A stretch of DNA of 64,000 nucleotides from Candidatus Krumholzibacteriia bacterium (GCA_035447065.1 DAOTGJ010000006.1:5668-69667), one strand, 5' to 3'; shown: positions 44,049 to 56,801, numbered from the stretch's first letter. The notes: generated from the letters alone by a model not told the origin. Translations and numbers: made by a program.

Positions 44049-44191
44049 TCATATGCGTTGAGGATAAGGGGGAGGACTCCCGCCTCACGCACTCAATCTG
44101 CGCGCACCTCGTGGTGACCTCGCCACCGGCCTCGGCCGGACACCTCAGAACGCAGAGGATTTCATTGCAGCGCACCGTCTCGCCCCGGTCC

Positions 44192-47100
44192 ATGCGACTC
44201 GTCCCCGTCGCCAAGAGCGGAGTCATCAAGTCCGGCATCGGCGCCTGGCTGATCGTGCTCCTCTGCGCGAGCGTCCTGCCGGCCGCGGCCGCCGACCATA
44301 CCGTCACCCTGGACCAGGCCCCGATCTGGAGCCGGGAGCTCGCCGGCACCGTGGTGCGCTGGCCCGGCCTGCCGCTCCTCGACGATCCCGACGCGCCGGC
44401 CCTGCCGTACCACGACGTGACCATCCTGCTGCCGCCGGGAGAGAGCCTGAGCGAGGTCCGGGTCCAGCCGGCGGAGGTGGCCGTGCGCCCCCTCGACGCG
44501 CCCATGGCTCCGGGGCGGCCTCCGCTCAGCGATCAGGGGGACACGGCGGCGGGCCGTACCGTTCCGGACGGAGGCGCGCCGCAGGCCTGGGGCGAGGTCC
44601 TGGGCACCAGCACCTGGCACGGCTATCAGCTGGGCCACGTGCGCATCCATCCCGTCCGTCTGCGCGAGACGGCGGACGGCCCCGTGGCCGAACACGCGCG
44701 CACGTTCCGGCTGACCACCTCCACCCGCCCCTCCACGCGGGCCAGCGTGTTGCGCCAGCGCGCCGTGCCCGGCGAGGAGCTCCGCCTGCGTTCCGTCCTG
44801 GGCCGTCACGTGCTGGGAGCCGAGCTCGCCGCCGCCTACCCGCAGGCCGCCGCCTCCGCCGCCGCCAAGACCCTGGAGGGCTACCGGCCCACCGACGCCC
44901 CGAGCCTGGACGGCTCGGACGTGCGCTTCGTGATCGTGACCACCGAAGCCCTGCGCCCGGCCTTCGAGCCGCTGGCCGAGTACCGCTGCGCCCAGGGCGT
45001 GCCCACGGTGGTGCGCACCCTGGAGTGGATCCTGGCCAACACCCTGCCCGAGGCCGACCCCCAGGCCACCCTGCGCTCGTTCCTGGCCGACGCCTACACG
45101 CGCTGGGGCGTGCGCTACGCCCTTCTGGGCGGCGACGTGGGCGTGATCCCCACGCGGATGATCTTCAACACCTACTACCCGTCCCAGAAGGGGTCGGACA
45201 TCCCGGTGGACCTGTACTACGGGGGGCTGGACGGCGACTGGAACGCCGACCGCGACGAGAACCTGGGCGAGCCCTACCTCAACGGCTTCGATCAGGGCGA
45301 CGACGCCGATCTGGTGCCGGAGATCCACGTGGGCCGCGCGCCGGTCACGAGCCTGGCCCAGGCCCAGACCTTCGTGGGCAAGATCCTGGCCTACGAGCGC
45401 GACCACGCCGGCGCGTACCAGGGCCGCGCCCTCTTCCTCAGCGAGGTCCTGTTCCCCAGCGACTACTCGCCGGGCGACGAGATCTACGACGACGGCGCCG
45501 CCTACAGCGAGGCCATCATCGCCGACGCCCTCGCCGGCCGCGACTTCGCCTACGACCGCCACTACGAGACCAGCCCCCTCTGGCCCGGCTCCGTGCCCGA
45601 GACGCGCAGCGGCGTCATCGGCGCCCTGAACAGCGGCCAGTACGGCATCGTGAACCACATCGGTCACGGCTACTTCTACAACATGTCCGTGGGGGCCGAG
45701 ACCCTGAACACGAAGGACGCGGAGGCCCTCCACAACGGCGACCAGCTCTTCGTGCTGAACAACCTGAACTGCGCCTCGGCGGCCATCGACTACAACTCCA
45801 TCATGGAGCGCTTCGTGACCAACGCCGACGGCGGCGCCGTGGCCGCCGTGGGCTCGAGCCGCGCCGCGTTCCCCTCCACCGCCTCGGGCTACCAGGCCAA
45901 CTTCTTCGACGGGATCTTCGTGCAGGGGCTGCGCACCCTGGGCGAGGCCGTGAACGCCATGCGCACGCCGTACGACGGCCAGACCTTCCAGAACACCGTG
46001 CAACGGTGGACCCACATGACGCTGGTGCTGGTGGGCGATCCCACGCTGCGCCTCTACGGCGCCGCGCCGACGGACCTGGCCGTGGCCGCGCCGGCCGCCC
46101 TCTCGCCGGGCCGGCAGGACGTGACCGTGGACGTGACCCGCGGCGGCGCGCCAGTGGCCGGCGCCGCCGTCTGCTTCTGGAAGGACGGCGACGACTACCG
46201 CACCGCGCTGACCGACGCCGCCGGCCGCGTCGTGGCCCCGGTGCACCTGCGCGGCGCCGGCACGCTGCGCATCACGGCCACCGCCGCCGACAGCCCGCCC
46301 CTGGAGATCGTCGTGCCCGTGGACGCGGGCCTGACGGCGTATCCCGCGCTGGCGGGCCTGACGGTGGTGGACGACGGCAGCCTGGGCACCCTGGGCAACG
46401 GCGACGGCGTGCCGGGCGCGGGCGAGACCGTGGCCCTGCTCACCGACTGGACCAACGCCGGCGGCGCCGACGCGGCCGCCGCGGGCACGCTCGCCCTGAG
46501 CTGCGACGATCCCCTCGTGAACGTCCTGACCGCCGGCGTGGATCTGCCGGCGCTGGCCGCGGGCGCCACCGGCGCGGCCGCGGCGCCCGTCCTGCTCCAG
46601 CTCGCCGCCACCATCCCCGACCGTTCCGAGTTCAGGCTCGACTTCACGGCGGCGTGGCAGAGCGGTCCCGTGGCGCAGCCCAGCATGCTCGAGGTCGTGG
46701 CTCCGCGCATGGAGCCGGGCCAGATGGCTTTCAACGACTACCCGCACGGCGACGGCGACGGCCTCATGGAGCCGGGCGAGCTGGTGCGACTCAAGCTCAG
46801 CCTCCTGAACACCGGCTGGGGCCTGGCCACCGGGCTGGTGGGCTGGATCGATCCGTCGGACCCCAACATCACCGTGGTCCAGGGCATCGGCACGTGGCCC
46901 CAGGCCGGGCGCAACCAGGAGGTGGAGCAGGAGCAGGAGTTCCTCCTCTCCATGGCCGCGGTGAACGGCACCGTGGAAGCCGTGCTGCACCTGGCGGATT
47001 CGCTGGGCCAGACCTGGGAGCACCGCTTCTCGCTGAACCGGCCGGCCACCCCGGTGATCTCCGAGGTGGAGTCCAGCAGCGTGGGGGAGATCCTGCTGGT

Positions 47101-48982
47101 GTGGGATCCCAACGCCGAGGCCGACCTGCTGGGCTACCACGTGCAGCGCGCGGCGTCGTCCAGCGGCCCGTACGAGCGGCTGACCCTGCGCCCCATCACC
47201 GGCGGCGCCTTCTTCCGCGACATCGGGCTGGATCCCCTGACGCGCTACTTCTACAAGGTCGCGGCCGTGGACTCGTCGCGGTTCGTGTCGGCCTACTCGC
47301 TCCCCATCTCCGTGAGCACGCCGCCCGCGGAGCAGACCGGCTTCCCCATCACCATGCCGGTGGAGACCTCCAGCCACATCGCCGTGGGCGACGTGAACGG
47401 CGACGGCGCCCTGGAGGTGGTCACCGCGGCGGAGGCCATCTACGTGTGGACGGCCGACGGCAACGAGCTGCTGGACGGCGACAACGATCCCACCACCCTG
47501 GGCCCCTTCGTGGACAACGGGGAGACCTGGACGCCCGCGGGCATCGTGCTGGCGGACATCACCGACGATCCCGGCCTGGAGATCGTGGCCTCGTGCCGCT
47601 CCACCAACGCCATCTACGTGTTCGAGTCCGACGGCGCGGTGGCGCCGGGCTGGCCGCGCACCATGAACAACTGGAACTGGGCCACGCCCTGCGCCGGGGA
47701 CATCGACGGCGACGGCCTGGCGGAGGTGGTGGTGAACACCATCCGCAACCGCACCTACGCCTGGAACCACGACGGCACGGAGGTGCTCGACGGCGACGGC
47801 GACCCCGCCACCGACGGCGTGTTCCACGAGCGCGTGAACGAGTGGTACTCCTTCGCCACGCCGTCGCTGGCGGACCTGGACGGCGACGGCGCGGCGGAGG
47901 TCATCTTCGGCACGCGCAGCAGCGACACGGCCCCGGACGAGCTGCTGGCCCTGCGCGCCGACGGCACCCAGCCCGCCGGCTGGCCGGTGCTGCTGGGGAT
48001 CTACGGCGAGGCCATGGATTCGCCGGCGGTGGGCGACTGGGACCGCGACGGCGACGTGGAGATCGTGCTCATCACGGAGGACGACAAGCTCCACGTCCTG
48101 GACCGCACCGGCGCCCACGAGCCCGGGTTCCCCATCGCGTTCATCGCCGACAACAACGGCGTGGGCCAGAGCTGCCCCTCGCCGGCCCTGGGCGACATGG
48201 ACGGCGACGGTCTGCTGGAGATCGTGGCCGTGGCCGTGGACGACGCCACCCATGCCATGATCCACGTCATCGGCCGCGACGGCCTGGACCTGCCCGGCTG
48301 GCCCAAGGCCGTGGGCGGCAGCTCGGAGAGCTCGCCCATCCTGGGCGACGTGACCGGCGACGGCCTGCCCGACGTGATCTACGGCATCGGCGGCGCCAGC
48401 GACTCCCAGGAGAACCTCCTCTACGCCTTCCGCAACGACGGCGCCACGATCCCGGGCTTCCCGCTCTCGCTGTCGGGACCCGTGCGCGCCACGCCCACCC
48501 TGACGGACCTGAACGGCGACGGCGACGTGGACCTGGTCTACGCCGGCTGGGACCTCGCGGTGCACGTCTGGGATTTCCCGGCCCCGTGGAACGAGGCCGC
48601 CGCGGCCTGGCCCACCTTCCACGGCGACGTGCAGCGCCGCGGCGTGACGGCGGACCTGACGATCTCCGCGGTGGCGGAGCCGTCGCCGCTGCTGCCGCAG
48701 GCGCTCGTGCTCGAGCCCTGCGCGCCCAACCCCTTCAATCCGGCCACGACGATCCGCTTCGCGCTGCCGGCCGACGTGCGCGGCCGCACGCGCCTGCGCG
48801 TGTTCGATCTCCAGGGCCGCCTGGTGCGCACGCTGGTGGACGGAGTGCTGCCCGCGGGCTTCCACGAGGTGGCGTGGCGGGGCCGCGACGACCGGGACCG
48901 CGCCGTGGGCAGCGGCGTGTACCTCTATCGCCTCGAGGCCGGCGGCGTGGCCGCCCAGGGGCGCATGACCCTGGTCAAGTAG
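44192..48982 (+). CDS. secreted multidomain C25 (gingipain-like) cysteine peptidase with FN3/Ig domains, FG-GAP repeats and T9SS-type C-terminal sorting domain (paralog 1)
   Basis: The signal peptide is 'MRLVPVAKSGVIKSGIGAWLIVLLCASVLPAAAA'. It has 'VRFVIVTTEALRPAFEPLAEYR', the dyad 'HIGHGYF' plus 'NNLNCASAAID', repeated 'GDVNGDGALEVV', 'DIDGDGLAEVV' and 'DLNGDGDVDLVYAG', and a C-terminus 'NPFNPATTIRFALP...SGVYLYRLEAG...RMTLVK'. Confidence 0.85.
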   Translation: MRLVPVAKSGVIKSGIGAWLIVLLCASVLPAAAADHTVTLDQAPIWSRELAGTVVRWPGLPLLDDPDAPALPYHDVTILLPPGESLSEVRVQPAEVAVRPLDAPMAPGRPPLSDQGDTAAGRTVPDGGAPQAWGEVLGTSTWHGYQLGHVRIHPVRLRETADGPVAEHARTFRLTTSTRPSTRASVLRQRAVPGEELRLRSVLGRHVLGAELAAAYPQAAASAAAKTLEGYRPTDAPSLDGSDVRFVIVTTEALRPAFEPLAEYRCAQGVPTVVRTLEWILANTLPEADPQATLRSFLADAYTRWGVRYALLGGDVGVIPTRMIFNTYYPSQKGSDIPVDLYYGGLDGDWNADRDENLGEPYLNGFDQGDDADLVPEIHVGRAPVTSLAQAQTFVGKILAYERDHAGAYQGRALFLSEVLFPSDYSPGDEIYDDGAAYSEAIIADALAGRDFAYDRHYETSPLWPGSVPETRSGVIGALNSGQYGIVNHIGHGYFYNMSVGAETLNTKDAEALHNGDQLFVLNNLNCASAAIDYNSIMERFVTNADGGAVAAVGSSRAAFPSTASGYQANFFDGIFVQGLRTLGEAVNAMRTPYDGQTFQNTVQRWTHMTLVLVGDPTLRLYGAAPTDLAVAAPAALSPGRQDVTVDVTRGGAPVAGAAVCFWKDGDDYRTALTDAAGRVVAPVHLRGAGTLRITATAADSPPLEIVVPVDAGLTAYPALAGLTVVDDGSLGTLGNGDGVPGAGETVALLTDWTNAGGADAAAAGTLALSCDDPLVNVLTAGVDLPALAAGATGAAAAPVLLQLAATIPDRSEFRLDFTAAWQSGPVAQPSMLEVVAPRMEPGQMAFNDYPHGDGDGLMEPGELVRLKLSLLNTGWGLATGLVGWIDPSDPNITVVQGIGTWPQAGRNQEVEQEQEFLLSMAAVNGTVEAVLHLADSLGQTWEHRFSLNRPATPVISEVESSSVGEILLVWDPNAEADLLGYHVQRAASSSGPYERLTLRPITGGAFFRDIGLDPLTRYFYKVAAVDSSRFVSAYSLPISVSTPPAEQTGFPITMPVETSSHIAVGDVNGDGALEVVTAAEAIYVWTADGNELLDGDNDPTTLGPFVDNGETWTPAGIVLADITDDPGLEIVASCRSTNAIYVFESDGAVAPGWPRTMNNWNWATPCAGDIDGDGLAEVVVNTIRNRTYAWNHDGTEVLDGDGDPATDGVFHERVNEWYSFATPSLADLDGDGAAEVIFGTRSSDTAPDELLALRADGTQPAGWPVLLGIYGEAMDSPAVGDWDRDGDVEIVLITEDDKLHVLDRTGAHEPGFPIAFIADNNGVGQSCPSPALGDMDGDGLLEIVAVAVDDATHAMIHVIGRDGLDLPGWPKAVGGSSESSPILGDVTGDGLPDVIYGIGGASDSQENLLYAFRNDGATIPGFPLSLSGPVRATPTLTDLNGDGDVDLVYAGWDLAVHVWDFPAPWNEAAAAWPTFHGDVQRRGVTADLTISAVAEPSPLLPQALVLEPCAPNPFNPATTIRFALPADVRGRTRLRVFDLQGRLVRTLVDGVLPAGFHEVAWRGRDDRDRAVGSGVYLYRLEAGGVAAQGRMTLVK

Positions 48983-49027: not shown

Positions 49028-49271
49028 GCTGATTCGCCCTGGAGGGAGGGCGGCCCGCCTCAGAGTCTCACCGCGTTTTCACTTGCCGGAAGGAGCGGCC
49101 GGGAAGCAGGTTAAAGCGTCTGACGGGACCGCGAAGCGGCCCCTGATTCCAGCTAGCGTACCCGGTTCGACGCCCTTGGTTCGCACGCGAACCGATCCGA
49201 GTCCGAAACGACCACGATAGACACCATTCCGCCAGGCCCGGCCGTCCGGGCCGATGACACGGGAGTGACCT

Positions 49272-52200
49272 ATGGTCCGCGATCGTCTCCGTTCGAAGCC
49301 TCGGGCGCGGCTGGCCGCGCTCGCCTGCATTGCGATCACCCTCCTCCTCGCCGCCGGCGTCGCCGCCGCGGCCGAGCGCGTCCTGCACCACGGCGTACTG
49401 GACGCCGACAAGCTCGTCTGGGAGTCCACCGCGGCCGGCAGCGTGCCGCGCTTCGGCGATGCTCCCATCTACCTGCAGGACGGGGTGCCCCAGGTGCCCA
49501 GCCTGTCGGTGACCGTGCTTGTGCCCGCCGACGCCGCCCTGGGCGACGTGACGGTGGTGCCCCTGCGCACCCGCCTCGTGGACGCGCCGTCGGCCCTGGC
49601 CTACGGCCGGCCGCTGATCAGCAGCGAGGGGGTGGCCGCCACCCAGGATCTCGTGTCCGCGTCCCGCGACCGCTTCCCCGACGCCTGGGGCCTGGACGGC
49701 GGCGATTCCTACCGCCGCGGCTACCGCCTCCAGAGCGTCACCGTGTTCCCCGTGCGCGCCGTCCGCGGCGCCGACGGGGTCTGGTCCGGCGTCGAGGTGC
49801 TGGAGGAGTTCGAGATCCGCACCGCCGGCACCGAGCCCGCGCCGCGGCCGGAGGACCGGGCGGTGCGCCGCCTGCTGGTGCCCGGCGAGCGCGAGCGCCT
49901 GGAGAGGGAGCTGGCGTCCGCGGTAGTCAACCCCGGCGCCCTCGGCGGCTACGCCCGCGAGGACGGCGTCCCCGCCGCGGATCTGCCCGGCGACAAGACC
50001 ATGAACCTGGGCGATTCCCCCTACGCCTACCTGATCATCACCTCCGAGGCCCTGGCGCCGGCGTTCGAGCCCCTGGCCGCGCACCGCACCGCCGGCGGCC
50101 TGCGCGCCACCGTCAAGACGCTGGAGTGGATCGAGGCCAACTACCGCCACGGCGCGGATCTCCAGGAGACCGTCCGCGGCTTCATCCGCGAGGCCTACGA
50201 GCGCTGGGGCGTGGAGTACGTGCTGCTGGGCGGCGACACCGACGTCATCCCGGCCCGCTACGCCCTGAGCAACTTCTACCCGCCCACGCAGACCACGGAC
50301 ATCCCCGCGGACATCTACTACGCGTGCCTGGACGGCAACTGGAACGCGGACGGCGACCCGTACTTCGGCGAGGCCGGCAGCTCCACGATCCCCGCCGACG
50401 ACGCCGACATGGCCGCGGAGGTCTTCCTGGGCCGCGCGCCGGTCAGCACGCCGGCGGAGGCCCAGAACTTCGTGACCAAGGTGGTGGACTACGAGCTCGG
50501 CACGGGCGGCGTCCACTACCCCAACAAGCTGCTGCTCGCCGCGGAGGTGCTCTTCCGCTCCGAGGCCGGCGACATCACGCTGGACGGGGCGTCCTTCGCC
50601 GAGGAGATCTACCTGGAGCTCGTGCAGCCCAACACCACCATGGACGTGGTGCGCATGTACGAGTCGTACAACGAGACCGACGAGTTCGGCGCGCCCCTGT
50701 ACCCCGGCTCCGTGCGCGAGACGCGGGCCGCGGTCATCGACACGCTGGACACCGGCACCTTCGGGATCTTCGTGCAGATCGGCCACGGCTTCTTCTTCAA
50801 CATGTCCATGGCCGATGCCGACATGACCGTGGGCGACGCCGACGGCCTGGTCAACGCGGACCGTCCGTTCCTGCTCTACGGGCTGAACTGCGCCAGCTGC
50901 GCCTTCGACTACAGCTGCCTCATGGAGCGGTTCGTGCAGAACCCCACCGGCGGCGCCATCGCGTCCATCGGCGCCTCCCGCGCGGCGTTCCCGTACACGT
51001 CCAACGACTTCCAGTACGAGTTCTTCCGCCTCTACTACGAGGAGGACGTGACGCGCCTGGGCGATCTCATCGACCGCAGCAAGCTGCCCTGGCTGTCGCT
51101 GGCGTACTCCAACAGCTTCACGCGCTGGACCTTCCTCAACTACACCCTGCTGGGCGACCCCGGCATGGCCCTGTGGCGCAACCGGCCCGCGGCCGTGACC
51201 CTGGGCACCCCGGGCAGCGTGGGCGGCGGCGACCAGACCGTGAACGTGACCGTCAGCAGCGCCGGCTCGCCGGTGCAGGACGCCATCGTGACCGTGCAGG
51301 GCGGGGGCACCTACGCCACCGCGGCCACCAACGCCTCCGGCCTCGCGGCCGTGCCGGTCACCGTGAACGCCGCGGGCCCGCTGAGCGTGGACGTGCACGG
51401 GCAGGACCTGGTCTGGACCAGCCGCGACGTTCCGGTGGTCTTCGGCGGCGCCTTCGTGGGGCTCGAGGACATGACGGTGCTGGACGACGGCACCCTGGGC
51501 ACCGTCGGCAACGGCAACGGCCGCGCCGAGGCGGGGGAGACCGTGGGCTTCTGGCCCACCTTCGCCGGCGTGGGCAGCAGCGGCAGCGGCGCCGCCACCG
51601 CCACGCTCGTCACCGCCGAGACCGGCGTGACCGTGGTGGACGGCAGCGTGGGCGTGCCGGCCCTGGCCGTGGGCGCCCAGGCCCAGAGCGACGCGCCCTT
51701 CCTGGTGGCCCTGGCCGCCGACGTGGCCGACGGCCGCCGCCTGGACTTCGACCTGGCGGTGAACGACGGCGCCAAGGCCCTCTACGCCAACGCCTGGTCC
51801 ACGCTGGCCACGGCGCCCGAGGTCGAGGCCGTGGCCCTGGACTGGTACGACACCTTCTTCGGCGACGGCGACGGCGTCGTGGACGACGGCGAGCGCATCT
51901 CCGTGCGCATGACCCTGAAGAACTACGGCGGCGGCGCGGCCGACGTGGTCACGGGACGCCTGCGCACCAACTCGGCCAACGTGAACGTCATCGACTCGGT
52001 GGCCACCTACGGCCCCCTGGACCTGCTGGACTCCTCGCAGGGGAGCGGCCTGTTCAGCTTCTCGCTGACCAGCGCCGTGGCGGCCTACGACGTGCGCGTG
52101 GAGTTCACCGACAACCGCGGCCGCACGTTCAGCCATCCGTTCGCCCTGAGCGATCCCACCACCCCCCTCAACCTGGTGGCCACCGGCTCGCTGGGCCCGG

Positions 52201-54113
52201 ACATCATCGGCCTCTCCTGGACGCCGGTGACGGATCCCAAGCTGCGCGGCTACCACGTCTACCGCAGCCAGAACGAGGGCGGTCCCTTCACGCGGGTCTC
52301 CGACGACCTGATCGAGGACATCTCGTACTTCCGCGACAAGGGCCTGGGCCTCCTCACGCGCTACTACTACCAGGTGTCCAGCGTGGACTCCAACCTGGTG
52401 GAGAGCCCCGTGTCGGCGGCCATCGCCCAGAGCACGGCGCCGCCGGAGATCACCAACTTCCCGCTGCCGTTCAACGGCGAGTCCAGCGGCCACTTCGCCG
52501 TGGGCGACGTGACCGGCGACGGTCATCTGGACATCGTCTTCGGCGCCAGCGAGATCTACGTCTGGCAGCGCGACGGCTCCGAGCTCTTCGACGGCGACGG
52601 GGACTCCCAGACCCTGGGCCCCATCACCGACGTGGACGGCACCTTCGGCCCCATGGGCATCGCCCTGGCGGAGCTCAACGGCCTGCCGGGCCTGGAGATC
52701 ATCTGCCAGGACCGCGACGCCAGGCTCCTGCACGTCTACGACGCCAAGACGGGTCAGGACCTTCCCGGCTGGCCTCAGCCCACGGGCCTGAACTGGGCCT
52801 GGGCCACGCCCGCCGTGGGGGATCTGGACAACGACGGCGATCTCGAGATCGTCATGAACAACCAGGCCGGCCAGACGCTGGTCTGGCACCACGACGGCAC
52901 GGAGCTGCTCGACGGCGACGCCAACCCCGCCACCAACGGCGTGTTCTTCGTCCGGCCCGAGGGCCGCTGGGCCTACGACCTGAGCTCGCCGGCCCTGTTC
53001 GACCTGGACGGCGACGGCAACCTGGAGATCATCTTCGGCACCAAGTACGCCTGGAACGCCGAGAACAAGCTCCACGCCCTGCGCATCGACGGCACCGAGG
53101 CCGCCGGCTTCCCCTACGTGACCGGCCTGGGCGCCAGCATCACCAGCAGCCCCACCATCGCGGACCTGAACGGCGACGGCGTGTGGGAGATCATCTTCCT
53201 GCACGAGCTGGAGAAGCTGCTGGTCGTGGAGCAGGACGGGACGGACTACCCCGGCTTCCCGATGACGCTGACGTCGAACAACGGCAACACGGCCTGCCCG
53301 AGCCCCGCCGTGGGCGACTTCGACGGCGACGGCCAGCTGGAGATCGCCTGCATCTCCACCGTGAGCGTGGTCAGCGCCTTCGTCACGGTGGTGGACACGG
53401 ATCCGGCCGGCGGCAGCGGCACCGTGCTGCCCGGCTGGCCCCAGGAGATCCCCGGCAACTCCGAGTCCAGCCCCGTGGTGGGCGACATCAACGGCGACGG
53501 GTTCCCCGACATCGTCCACGGCATCGGCGGCGGGGACGAGGAGACCCTCAACGAGATCTTCGCCTTCGACCATCAGGGCAACCCGGTGGAAGGCTTCCCC
53601 ATCACCCTGGGCGGTCCCATCCGCCCGGCGCTGGTCATCACGGACCTGGACGACGACCACGACGTGGACATCGTCTACGGCGGCTGGGACGGCGCCATGC
53701 ACGTGTGGGACATGCCCTTCCCGGCGGACGGCACCCAGATCCCCTGGGGCACCTTCCGCGGCCATTACCACCGCGACGGCGTGTACCGCAACTACAGCCC
53801 CACGGGCGTGGAGGAGGCCCCGGCCCCGGTGGACCTGACCCTGGGTTCCATCCGGCCCAACCCCTTCAACCCGAGCACCACGGTGCGCCTCTACGTGCCC
53901 GCCATGGGCCGCGAGGGGCTGGAGGTGGACGTCTTCGACGTGCAGGGCCGCCGCGTGCGCCGCCTGCACGAGGGCGCCCTGGAGGCGGGCTGGCACGACT
54001 TCGTCTGGAACGGCCGCGACGACGCCGGCAAGGCCCAGGCCAGCGGCCTGTACCTGCTGCGCGCCAAGGGCGGCGACACCTCGGTCAGCGCCAAGATGGC
54101 CCTGATCCGTTGA
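49272..54113 (+). CDS. secreted multidomain C25 (gingipain-like) cysteine peptidase with FN3/Ig domains, FG-GAP repeats and T9SS-type C-terminal sorting domain (paralog 2)
   Basis: The signal peptide is 'MVRDRLRSKPRARLAALACIAITLLLAAGVAAAA'. It has 'YAYLIITSEALAPAFEPLAAHR', 'QIGHGFFFNM' plus 'YGLNCASCAFD', 'GDVTGDGHLDIVFG' and 'DLNGDGVWEIIF', and a C-terminus 'NPFNPSTTVRLYVP...SGLYLLRAKGG...KMALIR'. Confidence 0.85.
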   Translation: MVRDRLRSKPRARLAALACIAITLLLAAGVAAAAERVLHHGVLDADKLVWESTAAGSVPRFGDAPIYLQDGVPQVPSLSVTVLVPADAALGDVTVVPLRTRLVDAPSALAYGRPLISSEGVAATQDLVSASRDRFPDAWGLDGGDSYRRGYRLQSVTVFPVRAVRGADGVWSGVEVLEEFEIRTAGTEPAPRPEDRAVRRLLVPGERERLERELASAVVNPGALGGYAREDGVPAADLPGDKTMNLGDSPYAYLIITSEALAPAFEPLAAHRTAGGLRATVKTLEWIEANYRHGADLQETVRGFIREAYERWGVEYVLLGGDTDVIPARYALSNFYPPTQTTDIPADIYYACLDGNWNADGDPYFGEAGSSTIPADDADMAAEVFLGRAPVSTPAEAQNFVTKVVDYELGTGGVHYPNKLLLAAEVLFRSEAGDITLDGASFAEEIYLELVQPNTTMDVVRMYESYNETDEFGAPLYPGSVRETRAAVIDTLDTGTFGIFVQIGHGFFFNMSMADADMTVGDADGLVNADRPFLLYGLNCASCAFDYSCLMERFVQNPTGGAIASIGASRAAFPYTSNDFQYEFFRLYYEEDVTRLGDLIDRSKLPWLSLAYSNSFTRWTFLNYTLLGDPGMALWRNRPAAVTLGTPGSVGGGDQTVNVTVSSAGSPVQDAIVTVQGGGTYATAATNASGLAAVPVTVNAAGPLSVDVHGQDLVWTSRDVPVVFGGAFVGLEDMTVLDDGTLGTVGNGNGRAEAGETVGFWPTFAGVGSSGSGAATATLVTAETGVTVVDGSVGVPALAVGAQAQSDAPFLVALAADVADGRRLDFDLAVNDGAKALYANAWSTLATAPEVEAVALDWYDTFFGDGDGVVDDGERISVRMTLKNYGGGAADVVTGRLRTNSANVNVIDSVATYGPLDLLDSSQGSGLFSFSLTSAVAAYDVRVEFTDNRGRTFSHPFALSDPTTPLNLVATGSLGPDIIGLSWTPVTDPKLRGYHVYRSQNEGGPFTRVSDDLIEDISYFRDKGLGLLTRYYYQVSSVDSNLVESPVSAAIAQSTAPPEITNFPLPFNGESSGHFAVGDVTGDGHLDIVFGASEIYVWQRDGSELFDGDGDSQTLGPITDVDGTFGPMGIALAELNGLPGLEIICQDRDARLLHVYDAKTGQDLPGWPQPTGLNWAWATPAVGDLDNDGDLEIVMNNQAGQTLVWHHDGTELLDGDANPATNGVFFVRPEGRWAYDLSSPALFDLDGDGNLEIIFGTKYAWNAENKLHALRIDGTEAAGFPYVTGLGASITSSPTIADLNGDGVWEIIFLHELEKLLVVEQDGTDYPGFPMTLTSNNGNTACPSPAVGDFDGDGQLEIACISTVSVVSAFVTVVDTDPAGGSGTVLPGWPQEIPGNSESSPVVGDINGDGFPDIVHGIGGGDEETLNEIFAFDHQGNPVEGFPITLGGPIRPALVITDLDDDHDVDIVYGGWDGAMHVWDMPFPADGTQIPWGTFRGHYHRDGVYRNYSPTGVEEAPAPVDLTLGSIRPNPFNPSTTVRLYVPAMGREGLEVDVFDVQGRRVRRLHEGALEAGWHDFVWNGRDDAGKAQASGLYLLRAKGGDTSVSAKMALIR

Positions 54114-54117
54114 CGTG

Positions 54118-54147
54118 AGGCCGGCCGACGGTTGACCCGCGGCCGGC
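54118..54147 (+). terminator. GC hairpin after peptidase gene 2 (plus second hairpin 54172-54206)
   Basis: The first hairpin is a 9-bp stem ggccggccg/cggccggcc with a 12-nt loop. The second is a 10-bp stem gggcgcggcc/ggccgcgccc. Confidence 0.35.
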
Positions 54148-54230
54148 CCACGCGCTACGTTGGATGTCGGTCGGGCGCGGCCCCTCCACCCGGAGGCGGC
54201 CGCGCCCTGCGTCTCGGAAGGACTCGCTGG

Positions 54231-55871
54231 GTGAAGATCGTCCGCCATCCGCCCTGGCCGCTGCTGCTCGCCTGCCTCCTGCTCATGGGGTGCGGGGGCG
54301 GCGACGCGCCCGACGGCGGCGGCCCCTCGGCTCCGGCCGACGCCCCCTCCCGCGGCGGCACCGCCGTGATCGCCTTCCCGGCCGAGCCCGACGTCCTCAA
54401 CCCCCTGCTCTACGCCTCGGCCTACAGCGGCATGGTCATGGTGCTGCTGAACGACTCGCTGGTGGAGATGGGGGAGGACTTCCTCTACGCGCCGCAGATC
54501 GCAGCCTCGGTCACACGGGATCCCGACGGCCTGGGCCTCACGGCGGCCCTCCGCCCCTGGCGCTGGAGCGACGGCTCGCCCCTGACGGCCGCCGACGTGG
54601 CGGCGTCCTTCCAGCTCATCCGCGATCCGGCCGTGGCCTCGCCGCGCTACGGCGCCGTGGCGCGTACGATCGTCTCGGTGACGGCGGTGGCCCCGGACAC
54701 GGTGCGCTACCGGTTCGCGGAGGCCCGCGCCGACCAGGACGCGGCCCTGGGCCACGTGCTCCTGCCCGCGCGCCTGACCGCGGATCTGGATCCGGCCGCG
54801 GTGCGCTCCTGGCCCCTCAACGAGTCGCCGCCCAGCTGCGGCATGTTCCGCCTGGAGCGCTGGGAGCACGACCGCAACCTCATCCTGGCTCGCAACGAGC
54901 AGTACGCCGGACAGGCGCCCCTTCTGGACCGCCTCCTGCTGCGCATCATCCCCGACGAGACCGCGCGCTTCCTGGAGCTGGAAACCGGCGGCGTGGACAT
55001 GATGACCGACATCCCGCCCCACCTTGCCAAGCGCCTGGAGGGCGACCCGCGCTTCGCGGTGGCGCGCACGCGCGGCCGTCTCATCGGCATGGTCTACTGG
55101 AACCATGAGGATCCGCTGTTCCAGGACGTCCGCGTGCGCAAGGCCCTCTCGCTGGCCATGGACCGCCAGGCCATCGTGGACGGGCTGCTCGGGGGCTACG
55201 GCCAGGCGGCGGCGGGGCCCATCCCGCCGGTTGTGTGGGCCCATGATCCGGCCGTCGCGCCGGATCCCCTGGATCCCGAGCGCGCGCGCGCCCTGCTGGA
55301 CGCCGCGGGCTGGCGCGACCGCGACGGCGACGGGGTGCGCGAACGCGGCGGCCGCCCCCTGCGCTTCGAGATCATCACGCGCAAGGGCGACCCCGTGCGC
55401 GAGAACGCCGTGGTGCAGCTCCGCGAGAACCTGGCGGCGGTGGGGGTGGACGCGCGGCCGCTGGTGCTGGAGTTCGCCACCGCCATCGACCGCGTGCAGG
55501 CCGGCGACTTCGCCGCCTACCTGGGGGTGTTCTCGGCCCGCCTGTCCGTGGATCCCTCCGGCCTGCTGGGCAGCGACGGCTTCGACCGCTGGAACTACGG
55601 CCGCTACGGCGACGCGCGCGCCGACAGCCTCATGCGCCTGGGCGTGGCGCTGGAGGACCGCGAGGCCGCTCGGCCGGTCTGGTCCGCCTTCCAGCAGCTC
55701 ATGGCCGAGGAGCAGCCCATGGCCTTCCTCTACCATCCCGACATGCTCGTGGCCTACGACCGTCGTCTGCGCGACGTGCGCCCGCACGTGCTCTCGCCGT
55801 TCAACAACGTGCGCGAATGGTGGATCGCGCCGGCGGACCGCCGCTATCCCGCCGCCGAAACTTCCCGGTAA
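54231..55871 (+). CDS. ABC transporter substrate-binding lipoprotein, family 5 (peptide/nickel, OppA/DppA-like)
   Basis: It starts at GTG. The lipoprotein signal is 'WPLLLACLLLMGCGGG', and the family-5 SBP architecture includes 'LVEMGEDFLYAPQIA' and 'RKGDPVRENAVVQL'. I found no permease or ATPase genes adjacent. Confidence 0.8.
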   Translation: MKIVRHPPWPLLLACLLLMGCGGGDAPDGGGPSAPADAPSRGGTAVIAFPAEPDVLNPLLYASAYSGMVMVLLNDSLVEMGEDFLYAPQIAASVTRDPDGLGLTAALRPWRWSDGSPLTAADVAASFQLIRDPAVASPRYGAVARTIVSVTAVAPDTVRYRFAEARADQDAALGHVLLPARLTADLDPAAVRSWPLNESPPSCGMFRLERWEHDRNLILARNEQYAGQAPLLDRLLLRIIPDETARFLELETGGVDMMTDIPPHLAKRLEGDPRFAVARTRGRLIGMVYWNHEDPLFQDVRVRKALSLAMDRQAIVDGLLGGYGQAAAGPIPPVVWAHDPAVAPDPLDPERARALLDAAGWRDRDGDGVRERGGRPLRFEIITRKGDPVRENAVVQLRENLAAVGVDARPLVLEFATAIDRVQAGDFAAYLGVFSARLSVDPSGLLGSDGFDRWNYGRYGDARADSLMRLGVALEDREAARPVWSAFQQLMAEEQPMAFLYHPDMLVAYDRRLRDVRPHVLSPFNNVREWWIAPADRRYPAAETSR

Positions 55872-55906
55872 TATTGTTGACACCTCCCCGGGGCCGGTGC
55901 TTTCCT

Positions 55907-55924
55907 GGCGGTAATATTACCGCC
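55907..55924. promoter_or_regulatory. 18-bp perfect AT-cored palindrome GGCGGTAATATTACCGCC (operator candidate) with upstream half-site CGGTAATATT and TTGACA
   Basis: The palindrome lies 29 nt upstream of the ATG of the HARE-HTH/H1-like gene. A partial copy at 55866-55875 is followed by TTGACA at 55877-55882. Confidence 0.35.
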
Positions 55925-55952
55925 CGCCCTCGTGTCCTCAGGAGGATTCTCC

Positions 55953-56801
55953 ATGGCATCCCGACTGACCCGACTGGCCGATGAACTCTCGCTGGACGAC
56001 CTCAAGCGCCTGCTGCAGGTGAAGGAGAAGATGACCGTGCTGGAGGCGCGGCGCGCCAAGCTGGCCTCCGAGCTCCAGGACGTCGACTCCGAGCTGGCCC
56101 AGCTCCGCCAGGGCATGACGGGCGGGCGCGGTCGTCCCGCCAAGACCAGGACGCGCGTGAAGACGGCCCGCGCCCCGCGCGCCCGCAAGGGCGACACGGT
56201 GGCCGGCGTGGTGGAGGAGCTCATCCGCGCCACCGGCCGGGCCATGACCTTCAAGGAGATCCACGACGCCGTGACGGAGGGCAAGCTCGTCACCACGCGC
56301 TCCAAGGATTTCGCCAACGTGCTGCGGCGCACCCTGTCCACCAGCGACGCCTTCGTGCGCGTGGGCCGCGGCGTGTACGGCGTATCCGGCGTGACCAAGG
56401 CGCCGGCCGCGGCGCCGGCCGCCAAGGCGACCGCCGGGAAGAAGACGGCGAAGAAGGCGGCCAAGAAGAAGACCGCGAAGAAGAAGGCCGCCGGCAAGAA
56501 GGTCGCCAAGAAGGCCGTCGCCAAGAAGGCGGGGCGGAAGGCCGCGGCGAAGAAGGTCGTCAAGAAGACCGCCGCCAAGCGCGGCGGTCGCCGGGCCGCG
56601 GGCGGCACCCTGGAGGACGTGGTGGTCGCGCTGCTGCGCAAGGCAGGCAAGCCGCTGGGCTTCCAGGACCTGCTGAAGACCATCGTGGACGGCAAGCTGT
56701 TCAAGAGCAAGGCCAAGGACTTCAGCAACGTGCTGCGCCGCACGCTGTCCACGAGCAAGAAGGTCCAGCGGCAGGGCCGCGGCGTCTACGGGCTGGCCTA
56801 G
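55953..56801 (+). CDS. DNA-binding protein with two HARE-HTH-like winged-helix domains separated by a histone H1-like Lys/Ala-rich linker
   Basis: An AGGAGG RBS precedes the start. An N-terminal coiled coil is followed by two repeats 'F(K/Q)(E/D)I...GKL...SKDF(A/S)NVLRRTLSTS...V.R.GRGVYG(V/L)' flanking 'AKKAAKKKTAKKKAAGKKVAKKAVAKKAGRKAAAKKVVKK'. Confidence 0.6.
   Translation: MASRLTRLADELSLDDLKRLLQVKEKMTVLEARRAKLASELQDVDSELAQLRQGMTGGRGRPAKTRTRVKTARAPRARKGDTVAGVVEELIRATGRAMTFKEIHDAVTEGKLVTTRSKDFANVLRRTLSTSDAFVRVGRGVYGVSGVTKAPAAAPAAKATAGKKTAKKAAKKKTAKKKAAGKKVAKKAVAKKAGRKAAAKKVVKKTAAKRGGRRAAGGTLEDVVVALLRKAGKPLGFQDLLKTIVDGKLFKSKAKDFSNVLRRTLSTSKKVQRQGRGVYGLA
56400..56598 (+). repeat. low-complexity Lys/Ala codon repeat (AAGAAGGCC-type) encoding the H1-like linker
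   Basis: I observed a run of GCC/AAG/AAGAAG repeats in the sequence. It is a protein-level KA repeat. Confidence 0.5.

What the first reader, a model, noticed from the sequence alone, without database searches (positions are those of the whole stretch)
55953..56801. Unusual protein: coiled coil + HARE-HTH-like domain + histone H1-like KA-repeat linker + second HARE-HTH-like domain
Two internal repeats of about 65 aa ('TFKEIHDAVTEGKLVTTRSKDFANVLRRTLSTSDAFVRVGRGVYGV' and 'GFQDLLKTIVDGKLFKSKAKDFSNVLRRTLSTSKKVQRQGRGVYGLA') carry the HARE-HTH hallmark, a winged helix ending in an 'R.GRG.Y.L' hairpin like the RpoE-delta N-terminus. They flank a ~60-aa Lys/Ala-rich tract typical of eukaryotic H1 tails and bacterial AlgP/Hc1-like nucleoid proteins. 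A dimer-like dual winged-helix reader joined by a polycationic DNA-compacting linker is, to my knowledge, not a described architecture. It could be a nucleoid-associated protein or a global regulator.
Basis: partly seen in the sequence, partly recalled or inferred. Interest (0 to 1): 0.7.

Follow-up and report, generated by a model that had tools for sequence, protein, structure and literature searches.

The report
Bacterial coiled-coil, twin winged-helix, lysine-rich DNA binder
This is a real, conserved gene of an uncultivated bacterium (Krumholzibacteria) for a very basic protein with a coiled coil, two forkhead/HARE-type winged helices and a histone-H1-like lysine/alanine linker; it is most likely a chromosome-organising DNA-binding protein from an undescribed family.

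Summary
Window 55953-56801 (+) encodes a 282-aa protein (pI 11.3). It has an N-terminal heptad helix, a winged helix (WH1), a 68-aa linker that is 70% Lys+Ala, and a second winged helix (WH2). Pfam HARE-HTH scores above its cut-off on both copies, and AlphaFold2 folds both as winged helices (pLDDT >90).

It is not an isolated oddity. It is a twin-domain variant of a family of small basic proteins (coiled coil, K/A linker, one WH). That family is found in Krumholzibacteria, and a related one in Phycisphaerae/Planctomycetes. Single-WH orthologues occupy the same chromosomal slot. The duplication is old in this clade, and twin-WH forms arose repeatedly.

The recognition helix (F-x-N-V-L-R-R-T-L-S) aligns with the forkhead helix H3, including its DNA-contact residues. 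The wing (R-G-x-Y) aligns with that of Rok.

A 12-bp AT-rich palindrome, GGTAATATTACC, and a second GGTAATATT copy lie upstream. They occur only there in 64 kb and are conserved upstream of family genes in other species.

Best reading: a nucleoid-associated or architectural DNA binder analogous to Rok/H-NS and linker histone, probably autoregulated. Function is inferred, not shown. Novelty: a new variant of a known kind.

The parts
55953..56801 (+). Coding sequence, 282 aa plus stop. Basic protein: pI 11.3, 72 K+R against 23 D+E.
55940..55945 (+). AGGAGG ribosome-binding site, 7 nt before the ATG
   Evidence: read directly
55953..56120 (+). Residues 1-56: short helix plus long heptad helix. 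Putative coiled-coil dimerisation/oligomerisation module.
   Evidence: AF2 helices 2-11 and 14-56. Conserved hydrophobic positions with 3-4 spacing. Nearly invariant L12, L20, L21, L30, L37, L41, L48, L51.
56121..56186 (+). Residues 57-78: short disordered Arg/Lys-rich segment, net charge +9
   Evidence: pLDDT <50 for residues 59-77; charge
56187..56393 (+). Residues 79-147: winged helix 1 (HARE-HTH type). Recognition helix FANVLRRTLST, wing VGRGVY.
56394..56597 (+). Residues 148-215: disordered Lys/Ala-rich linker (35% K, 35% A, net +28), H1-tail-like in composition
   Evidence: weak compositional hits
56598..56798 (+). Residues 216-282: winged helix 2 (HARE-HTH type). Recognition helix FSNVLRRTLST, wing QGRGVY.
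55910..55921 (.). Perfect 12-bp AT-rich palindrome GGTAATATTACC, 32 nt upstream of the ATG. Candidate operator or promoter element.
   Evidence: Conserved upstream of family genes in other species.
55867..55875 (+). Second copy, GGTAATATT. It overlaps the stop codon of the upstream gene and abuts TTGACA.
55877..55882 (+). TTGACA hexamer between the two motif copies. It is conserved in five orthologous loci. No matching -10 hexamer lies at 16-18 nt.

Best explanation
The gene encodes a chromosomal DNA-binding architectural (nucleoid-associated) protein. In the proposed model, the N-terminal heptad helix pairs protomers into dimers or higher oligomers. Each winged helix docks on DNA through its invariant recognition helix (N-x-x-R-R-x-x-S) and its wing (R-x-x-R-G-x-Y). 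The disordered Lys/Ala linker binds DNA non-specifically and neutralises charge, as the tail of linker histone H1 does. A dimer would carry four DNA-binding heads and could bridge or condense DNA. This is analogous to the three-part Rok/H-NS/MvaT/Lsr2 design of oligomerisation domain, linker and DNA-binding domain. The conserved AT-rich palindrome GGTAATATTACC and the second GGTAATATT copy in its own promoter region are proposed high-affinity sites for autoregulation. Shown here: domain identities, predicted folds, family distribution, synteny, duplication history and motif conservation. Inferred: DNA binding, oligomerisation, bridging or condensation, and autoregulation.
For: Both repeats are HARE-HTH above the Pfam cut-off. 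AF2 gives two confident winged helices, a long N-terminal helix and two disordered basic tracts.

The invariant residues across 120 relatives are F, N, V, R, R, S on helix alpha3 and R, G, Y in the beta-hairpin wing. These are the classical DNA-contact elements.

hhalign places F-x-N-V-L-R-R-T-L-S on the FOXA2 and FOXO1 helix H3 sequence W-x-N-S-I-R-H-x-L-S (E=0.0056 and 0.024). The forkhead sequences were verified against PDB. In FOXO1, Asn211, His215 and Ser218 of that helix contact DNA in the major groove (PMC8034652).

58 of 120 relatives hit the Rok winged-helix model PF23159, best E=2.9e-7. The wing R-G-x-Y aligns with Rok R174-G-x-Y, and a near-invariant Arg aligns with Rok K171. The roles of those Rok residues are given in PMC6212790.

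The layout matches the defining layout of H-NS-like proteins (PMC6936261). The protein has pI 11.3 and net charge +49.

The gene sits in a conserved housekeeping neighbourhood: C25 peptidase, SBP_bac_5, this gene, HIT, PfkB, Hsp20, Lon. That order holds across orthologues that are 38-55% identical. There are no defence, phage or plasmid links.

Genomes carry paralogues, as known nucleoid proteins often do.

The GGTAATATT motif occurs only upstream of this gene in 64 kb, with 0.22 matches expected by chance. It lies within 200 nt upstream in 26 of 42 family loci, at 3.9 per kb against 0.18 per kb elsewhere.

Against: The best-supported sequence relative with a solved structure is the RNA polymerase delta N-terminal domain. 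That domain binds RNA polymerase, not DNA.

A 10-12 bp palindrome suggests a sequence-specific regulator rather than a general nucleoid protein. No further copies occur in the window, so no regulon is visible.

The motif is absent upstream of the paralogue in L007 and of three Phycisphaerae relatives. The proximal copy could simply be a -10-like promoter element.

Abundance, which is a defining trait of nucleoid proteins, could not be assessed. Coiled-coil oligomerisation rests on heptad pattern and a monomer model only.
Confidence: 0.55

Rival explanations
1. It is a dedicated sequence-specific transcription factor, either an autoregulator or a local regulator. It would bind the GTAATATTAC palindrome as a coiled-coil dimer or through its two winged helices. 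The K/A linker would only raise affinity.
For: The upstream element is a perfect 12-bp palindrome with a second copy, and it is gene-specific and conserved across species. The recognition helix resembles that of forkhead factors, which read GTAAACA-type sites and palindromes such as AAATATTT.
Against: Extreme basicity and a 40-139-aa K/A tract conserved family-wide are atypical for dedicated regulators. There is no conserved partner gene or operon beyond housekeeping synteny. The motif is missing in about 40% of family loci and in the Phycisphaerae relatives. This rival and the nucleoid-protein model are not mutually exclusive, since Rok both shows site preferences and acts genome-wide.
Confidence: 0.2
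2. It is an RNA-polymerase-associated factor that works like the delta subunit (RpoE) of Firmicutes. The HARE-HTH domain would dock on RNA polymerase, and the charged disordered tract would modulate nucleic-acid binding.
Against: The similarity covers only alpha1-alpha2, 28 columns. The family's invariant residues lie in alpha3 and the wing, and these are not shared with delta. The delta tail is polyanionic, whereas here it is polycationic. TIGR04567 scores 19 bits against a cut-off of 42. The N-terminal coiled coil has no counterpart in delta.
Confidence: 0.07
3. It is a reader of modified DNA (for example N6-methyladenine), or part of a restriction or defence system, as proposed for several HARE-HTH and related winged-helix domains.
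For: The HARE-HTH family includes fusions to restriction endonucleases and proposed 6mA sensors (titles and abstracts listed).
Against: There is no PADLOC hit. No nuclease or methylase neighbours appear in any of the loci examined. The neighbourhood is housekeeping and syntenic. No phage or plasmid copies were found.
Confidence: 0.05
4. It is an RNA-binding or ribosome-associated basic protein. The winged helix and K/A tract would bind RNA rather than DNA.
For: Some structural neighbours are RNA- or ribosome-associated winged helices: LYAR on 80S ribosomes, Z-alpha domains and Egalitarian.
Against: These are generic fold matches. The sequence-level links are to the DNA-binding forkhead and Rok domains and to HARE-HTH. 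There is no ribosomal or RNA-processing gene context.
Confidence: 0.05

Closest known systems
Rok (Bacillus subtilis xenogeneic silencer) and the H-NS/MvaT/Lsr2 class of DNA-bridging proteins
   Same: All share the layout of N-terminal helical or coiled-coil oligomerisation module, flexible linker and C-terminal DNA-binding domain (PMC6936261). As in Rok, the DNA-binding domain is a winged helix. 58 of 120 relatives hit the Rok WH Pfam model. The wing R-G-x-Y and the preceding basic residue align with Rok R174 and K171. Paralogues occur within a genome. The candidate target is AT-rich with TpA steps, and Rok prefers such sequences.
   Different: This protein scores below the Rok WH cut-off (13.5 against 27.6 bits). 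The Rok N154/T156 positions are not clearly matched. The linker is a long polycationic K/A tract, whereas Rok has a neutral Q-linker. The window protein carries a second winged helix. The host phyla are Krumholzibacteriota and Planctomycetota rather than Bacillus.
HARE-HTH domain family (PF05066), including the N-terminal domain of RNA polymerase delta subunit RpoE
   Different: alpha3 and the wing carry a family-specific invariant basic motif (NVLRRTLS...R.GRG.Y) that delta lacks. The charged tract is basic rather than acidic. There is an added coiled coil and a tandem domain.
Eukaryotic linker histones H1/H5, especially yeast Hho1p (two globular winged helices flanking a lysine-rich tract)
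   Different: No sequence-level relationship was detected. There is no Pfam Linker_histone hit, and hhalign against GH5 gives E=0.13 (GH5 sequence verified). This protein has a coiled coil. Bacteria have no nucleosomes to bind.
Forkhead (FOX) DNA-binding domains
   Same: They are the top structural hits. There is a sub-threshold Pfam Forkhead hit (E=0.0018). The recognition helix aligns residue for residue: N with N, R with R, R with H, S with S. The conserved upstream palindrome GTAATATTAC resembles head-to-head forkhead half-sites (AAATATTT core, PMC8034652).
   Different: The score is below the Forkhead cut-off (18.8 against 27 bits). The protein lacks the forkhead insertions between H2 and H3 and lacks wing 2. 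It is bacterial and has a coiled coil and a K/A tract.
Bacterial lysine/alanine-repeat 'H1-like' proteins (chlamydial Hc1/Hc2, AlgP, Burkholderia H1-like, K/A tails of mycobacterial HupB)
   Same: The K/A tract has the same composition. 31 relatives hit Pfam HC2. The query weakly hits NF038053.
   Different: Those proteins lack a winged helix and a coiled coil. The hits are compositional and far below cut-off (15.8 against 80 bits).
Sso10a (archaeal chromatin protein: winged helix plus antiparallel coiled coil)
   Same: It combines a winged helix with a coiled-coil dimerisation rod in a chromatin protein (title cited in PMC11894785).
   Different: The domain order differs, there is no K/A tract, and no sequence relationship was tested.

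Membership tests
HARE-HTH (Pfam PF05066) | Profile score above the Pfam gathering threshold | tested here: met
   45.5 bits against 25.9, E=1e-11, two stretches. 48 of 120 relatives hit at E<0.01.
HARE-HTH (Pfam PF05066) | Three-helix winged-helix fold ending in a beta-hairpin | tested here: met
HARE-HTH (Pfam PF05066) | Sequence relationship to a founding member (RNA polymerase delta N-terminal domain) | tested here: met
   hhalign E=5e-6, probability 86%, but only over alpha1-alpha2, 28 columns.
RNA polymerase delta subunit (TIGR04567) | Equivalog score above cut-off, plus an acidic C-terminal tail | tested here: not met
   19 bits against 42. The disordered tract is polycationic.
Rok family (Pfam PF23159 winged helix) | Profile score above the gathering threshold | tested here: not met
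   13.5 bits against 27.6, E=0.079 for this protein. Relatives reach E=2.9e-7.
Rok family (Pfam PF23159 winged helix) | Invariant DNA-contact residues N154, K171 and R174, with T156 highly conserved (PMC6212790) | tested here: inconclusive
   R174-G-x-Y and K171 align with the family's invariant R-G-x-Y and a near-invariant R. N154 aligns with a variable N/D position, and the family's invariant Asn lies 3 residues later (E=0.048).
H-NS-like DNA-bridging proteins (functional class) | N-terminal oligomerisation domain, flexible linker and C-terminal DNA-binding domain | tested here: met
   Predicted anatomy. The class definition is from PMC6936261. The presence of two dimerisation sites was not established.
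H-NS-like DNA-bridging proteins (functional class) | Binds AT-rich DNA, bridges duplexes and silences genes | not testable with these tools
   The only evidence is indirect: conserved AT-rich palindromes upstream of the gene.
Linker histone H1/H5 (Pfam PF00538) | Sequence profile of the globular domain | tested here: not met
   No Linker_histone hit at E<=10, and none among the 25 family-wide hits shown of 32. hhalign against GH5 gives E=0.13.
Linker histone H1/H5 (Pfam PF00538) | Winged-helix globule plus Lys/Ala-rich disordered tail | tested here: met
Forkhead (Pfam PF00250) | Profile score above the gathering threshold | tested here: not met
   18.8 bits against 27, E=0.0018. The recognition helix nevertheless aligns.
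Bacterial H1-like K/A-repeat proteins (NF038053, Pfam HC2) | Model score above cut-off | tested here: not met
   NF038053 scores 15.8 bits against 80. The HC2 hits in 31 relatives are compositional.

The most novel reading that the evidence does not exclude
This family is the principal chromatin protein of Krumholzibacteriota and of some Planctomycetota (Phycisphaerae). It would be a genuine bacterial counterpart of eukaryotic linker histones and forkhead proteins: a forkhead-like recognition helix on an H1/forkhead-like winged helix, joined to an H1-like Lys/Ala tail and oligomerised by a coiled coil. It might share ancestry with the H1/forkhead winged-helix lineage rather than merely converging on it. 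The twin-WH form would be a bacterial parallel to yeast Hho1p.
Probability: 0.12. Interest if true: 0.85.

Novelty: new variant of a known kind. Interest (0 to 1): 0.55.

Why it matters
The nucleoid proteins of uncultivated phyla are almost unknown. This family combines three modules that are each known from chromatin proteins: a coiled-coil oligomeriser, a winged helix and an H1-like polycationic tract. The combination has not been described for bacteria. It gives a concrete candidate for the Rok/H-NS-type or H1-type organiser in Krumholzibacteriota and Phycisphaerae. It also comes with a directly testable binding-site prediction (GTAATATTAC). In addition, there is a natural series of one-, two- and multi-winged-helix variants for studying how valency and linker charge shape DNA bridging or condensation. 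The forkhead-like recognition helix in a bacterial HARE-HTH domain also bears on where the forkhead/H1 winged helices came from.

Tried and rejected
- Sequence searches of PDB with the full protein and with a WH profile gave nothing significant.
- The NCBIfam valine-tRNA ligase hit (E=4.7e-10, 38 bits against a 1783-bit cut-off) is coiled-coil and K/A composition only. It was rejected.
- A defence or mobile-element origin was rejected. PADLOC gave no hit. tblastn of WH2 against phage and plasmid collections found nothing. Only a weak PHROG hit of unknown function remains.
- The sigma-70 promoter scan found no promoter. TTGACA has no -10 partner at 16-18 nt.
- The idea that the palindrome is a LexA box was dropped. 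lexA lies nearby in two orthologous loci, but the only other exact copy in such a locus lies inside lon, not upstream of lexA.
- A test of whether the palindrome travels with the protein family into Phycisphaerae was negative. Only 'GGTAAT'-like remnants occur at similar positions. This leaves a -10-like role open.
- The palindrome is also absent upstream of the paralogue P0100.
- A second database search with an alignment of distant WH domains returned only short unnamed fragments and added little.
- The cluster look-up gave no taxonomy for the distant twin-WH families.
- Rfam and tRNA scans of the window were empty.
- Oligomeric state could not be modelled, because only single-chain prediction is available.

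Full report
**1. The observation**

The ORF at 55953-56801 (+) starts with ATG seven bases after an AGGAGG site and encodes 282 aa. GC3 is 96% in a 72% GC window. Exactly the same protein is called as a hypothetical protein in Candidatus Krumholzibacteria MAGs.

They are 47% identical over 66 residues (E=5e-22). Between them lies a 68-residue tract that is 35% Lys and 35% Ala, with net charge +28. The whole protein has pI 11.3.

AlphaFold2, run with a 120-sequence alignment, gives:
- helices 2-11 and 14-56;
- a disordered basic stretch at 59-77;
- winged helix 1 at 83-144;
- a disordered stretch at about 148-215;
- winged helix 2 at 220-281.

The folded parts have pLDDT >90, and there is no fixed inter-domain geometry (pTM 0.35). 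Hydrophobic positions in the long helix that are conserved across the family follow a 3-4 heptad spacing.

**2. Domain identity**

Pfam HARE-HTH (PF05066) matches both repeats above its gathering score (45.5 against 25.9 bits, E=1e-11). Sub-threshold hits go to other winged helices: MCM4_WHD, GDS1, Forkhead and Rok.

Across 120 relatives, 58 hit the Rok winged-helix model (best E=2.9e-7) and 48 hit HARE-HTH (best E=6e-12).

A profile of the domain (alignment A2) was compared with individual domains:

| Partner | hhalign E | Extent |
|---|---|---|
| RNA polymerase delta N-terminal domain | 5e-6 | alpha1-alpha2 only |
| FOXA2 | 0.0056 | through the recognition helix |
| FOXO1 | 0.024 | through the recognition helix |
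| Rok C-terminal domain | 0.048 | end to end |
| Histone H5 globular domain | 0.13 | not significant |

The delta sequence was confirmed only for residues 14-42, the part aligned.

So the fold is a winged helix of the HARE-HTH/forkhead/H1 neighbourhood. Membership is demonstrated only for HARE-HTH.

**3. What is conserved**

The invariant columns across the family are F, N, V, R, R and S of helix alpha3 (F-x-N-V-L-R-R-T-L-S) and R, G and Y of the hairpin (R-x-G-R-G-x-Y). Both copies in the window protein keep all of them.

In the hhalign alignments these map onto the forkhead H3 sequence W-x-N-S-I-R-H-x-L-S. In FOXO1, the Asn, His and Ser of that helix contact DNA in the major groove (PMC8034652). 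They also map onto the Rok wing, R174-G-x-Y with K171. In Rok those residues contact the minor groove and the backbone (PMC6212790).

That the invariant residues sit on the two canonical DNA-contact elements is the main argument for DNA binding. It is an inference.

**4. The family and the origin of the twin form**

The database search found 305 clusters at E<=1e-3. Of the top 120, 12 are twin-WH proteins of 268-322 aa. The other 108 are 160-260-aa 'singlets'. Singlets have the same N-terminal helix, a K/A/R-rich linker (median 70 aa, range 40-139) and one C-terminal winged helix, with median pI 11.3.

Named members are almost all Krumholzibacteria. A scan of one genome per GTDB species with the peptide NVLRRTLSTS found 59 loci, again nearly all labelled Krumholzibacteria or given MAG placeholder names.

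The twin gene lies in a conserved order: C25 peptidase, SBP_bac_5, this gene, HIT, PfkB, Hsp20, Lon. This holds in orthologues only 53-55% identical. In other Krumholzibacteria a singlet occupies exactly that slot. The twin form is therefore a lineage-specific elaboration of a vertically inherited core gene.

In a neighbour-joining tree of the domains, WH1 of P0001-P0011 forms one clade and WH2 forms another. This indicates a single old duplication followed by divergence (43-58% identity within a protein). P0012 is an independent twin.

Genomes also carry unlinked singlet paralogues:
- P0100 occurs together with P0062.
- L056 lies in the same MAG as the twin-WH gene in L009.

**5. Wider distribution**

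An exhaustive profile search of 1.84 billion cluster representatives with the WH profile found 358 proteins at E<=1e-3 and 99 at E<=1e-10. Beyond the close family there are other 'coiled coil, WH, K/A, WH' proteins: P0200, P0209, P0211, P0215, P0216 and P0218. There are also arrays of 3-7 HARE-type winged helices without K/A tracts.

The P0211 group comprises about 30 twin-WH clusters plus singlets. The few named members come from Phycisphaerae or Planctomycetes. The Krumholzibacteria twins are retrieved by it at E about 1e-10.

The architecture is therefore recurrent, not unique. It remains confined to metagenomic 'hypothetical proteins'. I found no paper on it.

**6. A conserved upstream element**

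Two copies of GGTAATATT precede the gene, at 55867-75 and 55910-18. The second lies within the perfect palindrome GGTAATATTACC. A TTGACA hexamer sits between the two copies.

These are the only matches in the 64-kb window, even allowing one mismatch (0.22 expected). The same holds when two mismatches to GTAATATTAC are allowed.

The same arrangement recurs upstream of orthologues. Over 42 family loci the motif lies within 200 nt upstream in 26, at 3.9 per kb against 0.18 per kb elsewhere. The proximal site is usually 30-48 nt before the ATG.

The motif is absent upstream of the paralogue in L007 and of three Phycisphaerae relatives.

The palindrome resembles two head-to-head forkhead-type half-sites. 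Compare the AAATATTT 'DIV0' core quoted in PMC8034652. That it is the protein's own operator is my preferred reading, but it is not tested. A -10-like promoter element or another factor's site remains possible.

**7. Mechanism proposed**

The coiled coil joins protomers. Each winged helix binds DNA through alpha3 and the wing. The K/A tract binds non-specifically and neutralises charge. A dimer of the twin form would have four heads and about +100 net charge, which suits bridging or condensation.

This parallels the Rok/H-NS/MvaT/Lsr2 design (PMC6936261) and the globule-plus-tail logic of linker histones. The WH, K-rich, WH order equals that of yeast Hho1p (PMC10470511). The palindromes would provide autoregulation.

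Rivals are a dedicated transcription factor, a delta-like RNA polymerase partner, a modified-DNA reader and an RNA binder. They are weighed in the fields above.

**8. Verdict**

Its structural interpretation passes the test it set.

The finding is best described as a new variant of known kinds, in two senses: a HARE-HTH winged helix in an H-NS/Rok-like, H1-flavoured architecture, and a member of an undescribed but sizeable family. Function is inferred only. Interest is moderate (0.55). It would rise sharply if the family proves to be the main chromatin protein of these phyla.

Noticed in passing
window 55867-55875 and 55910-55921; also L004, L005, L006, L008 and 26 of 42 GTDB loci: The AT-rich palindrome GGTAATATTACC and a second GGTAATATT copy flank a TTGACA hexamer upstream of the gene. 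In 64 kb they occur only here. They are conserved upstream of family genes in other species, often preceded by AGGGTG.
   Followed up: partly
window 44111-48982 and 49272-54113 (+): Two tandem paralogous genes of about 1,620 aa, 40% identical over about 1,590 aa. The second, and its orthologues, carry Peptidase_C25, FG-GAP and FlgD_ig domains. They lie directly upstream of the conserved syntenic block.
   Followed up: partly
L056 2078-2575 (same MAG as the twin-WH gene in L009); L007 3105-3623: Genomes that carry the syntenic family gene also encode an unlinked single-WH paralogue. In L007 it lies near an IS-type transposase. This recalls the H-NS/StpA and Rok/sRok pairs.
   Followed up: partly
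L070 1080-5801: In one relative from the P0211 (Phycisphaerae/Planctomycetes-type) family, the twin-WH gene lies immediately downstream of a GyrB-like and topoisomerase-IV-like gene pair. This is a chromosome-topology neighbourhood.
   Followed up: no
proteins P0196, P0198, P0206, P0224, P0226, P0207: Distant relatives carry 3-7 tandem HARE-type winged helices without K/A linkers. One is from the green alga Chloropicon primus, where it is annotated as an HTH HARE-type domain protein. P0204 has three copies followed by an additional, unidentified C-terminal region.
   Followed up: no
window protein residues 167-279 (window 56451-56789): There is a weak match to phrog_12313 (E=1.8e-6), a phage protein family of unknown function. 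The match covers the K/A tract and WH2. However, tblastn of WH2 found nothing in 50,697 phage records.
   Followed up: partly
window 49068-55883 (-) and other long antisense ORFs: Very long spurious ORFs run on the opposite strand of real genes. One is a 2,271-aa ORF antisense to the C25 peptidase and SBP genes, and a 304-aa ORF is antisense to the gene studied. Both are artefacts of the 72% GC content.
   Followed up: no
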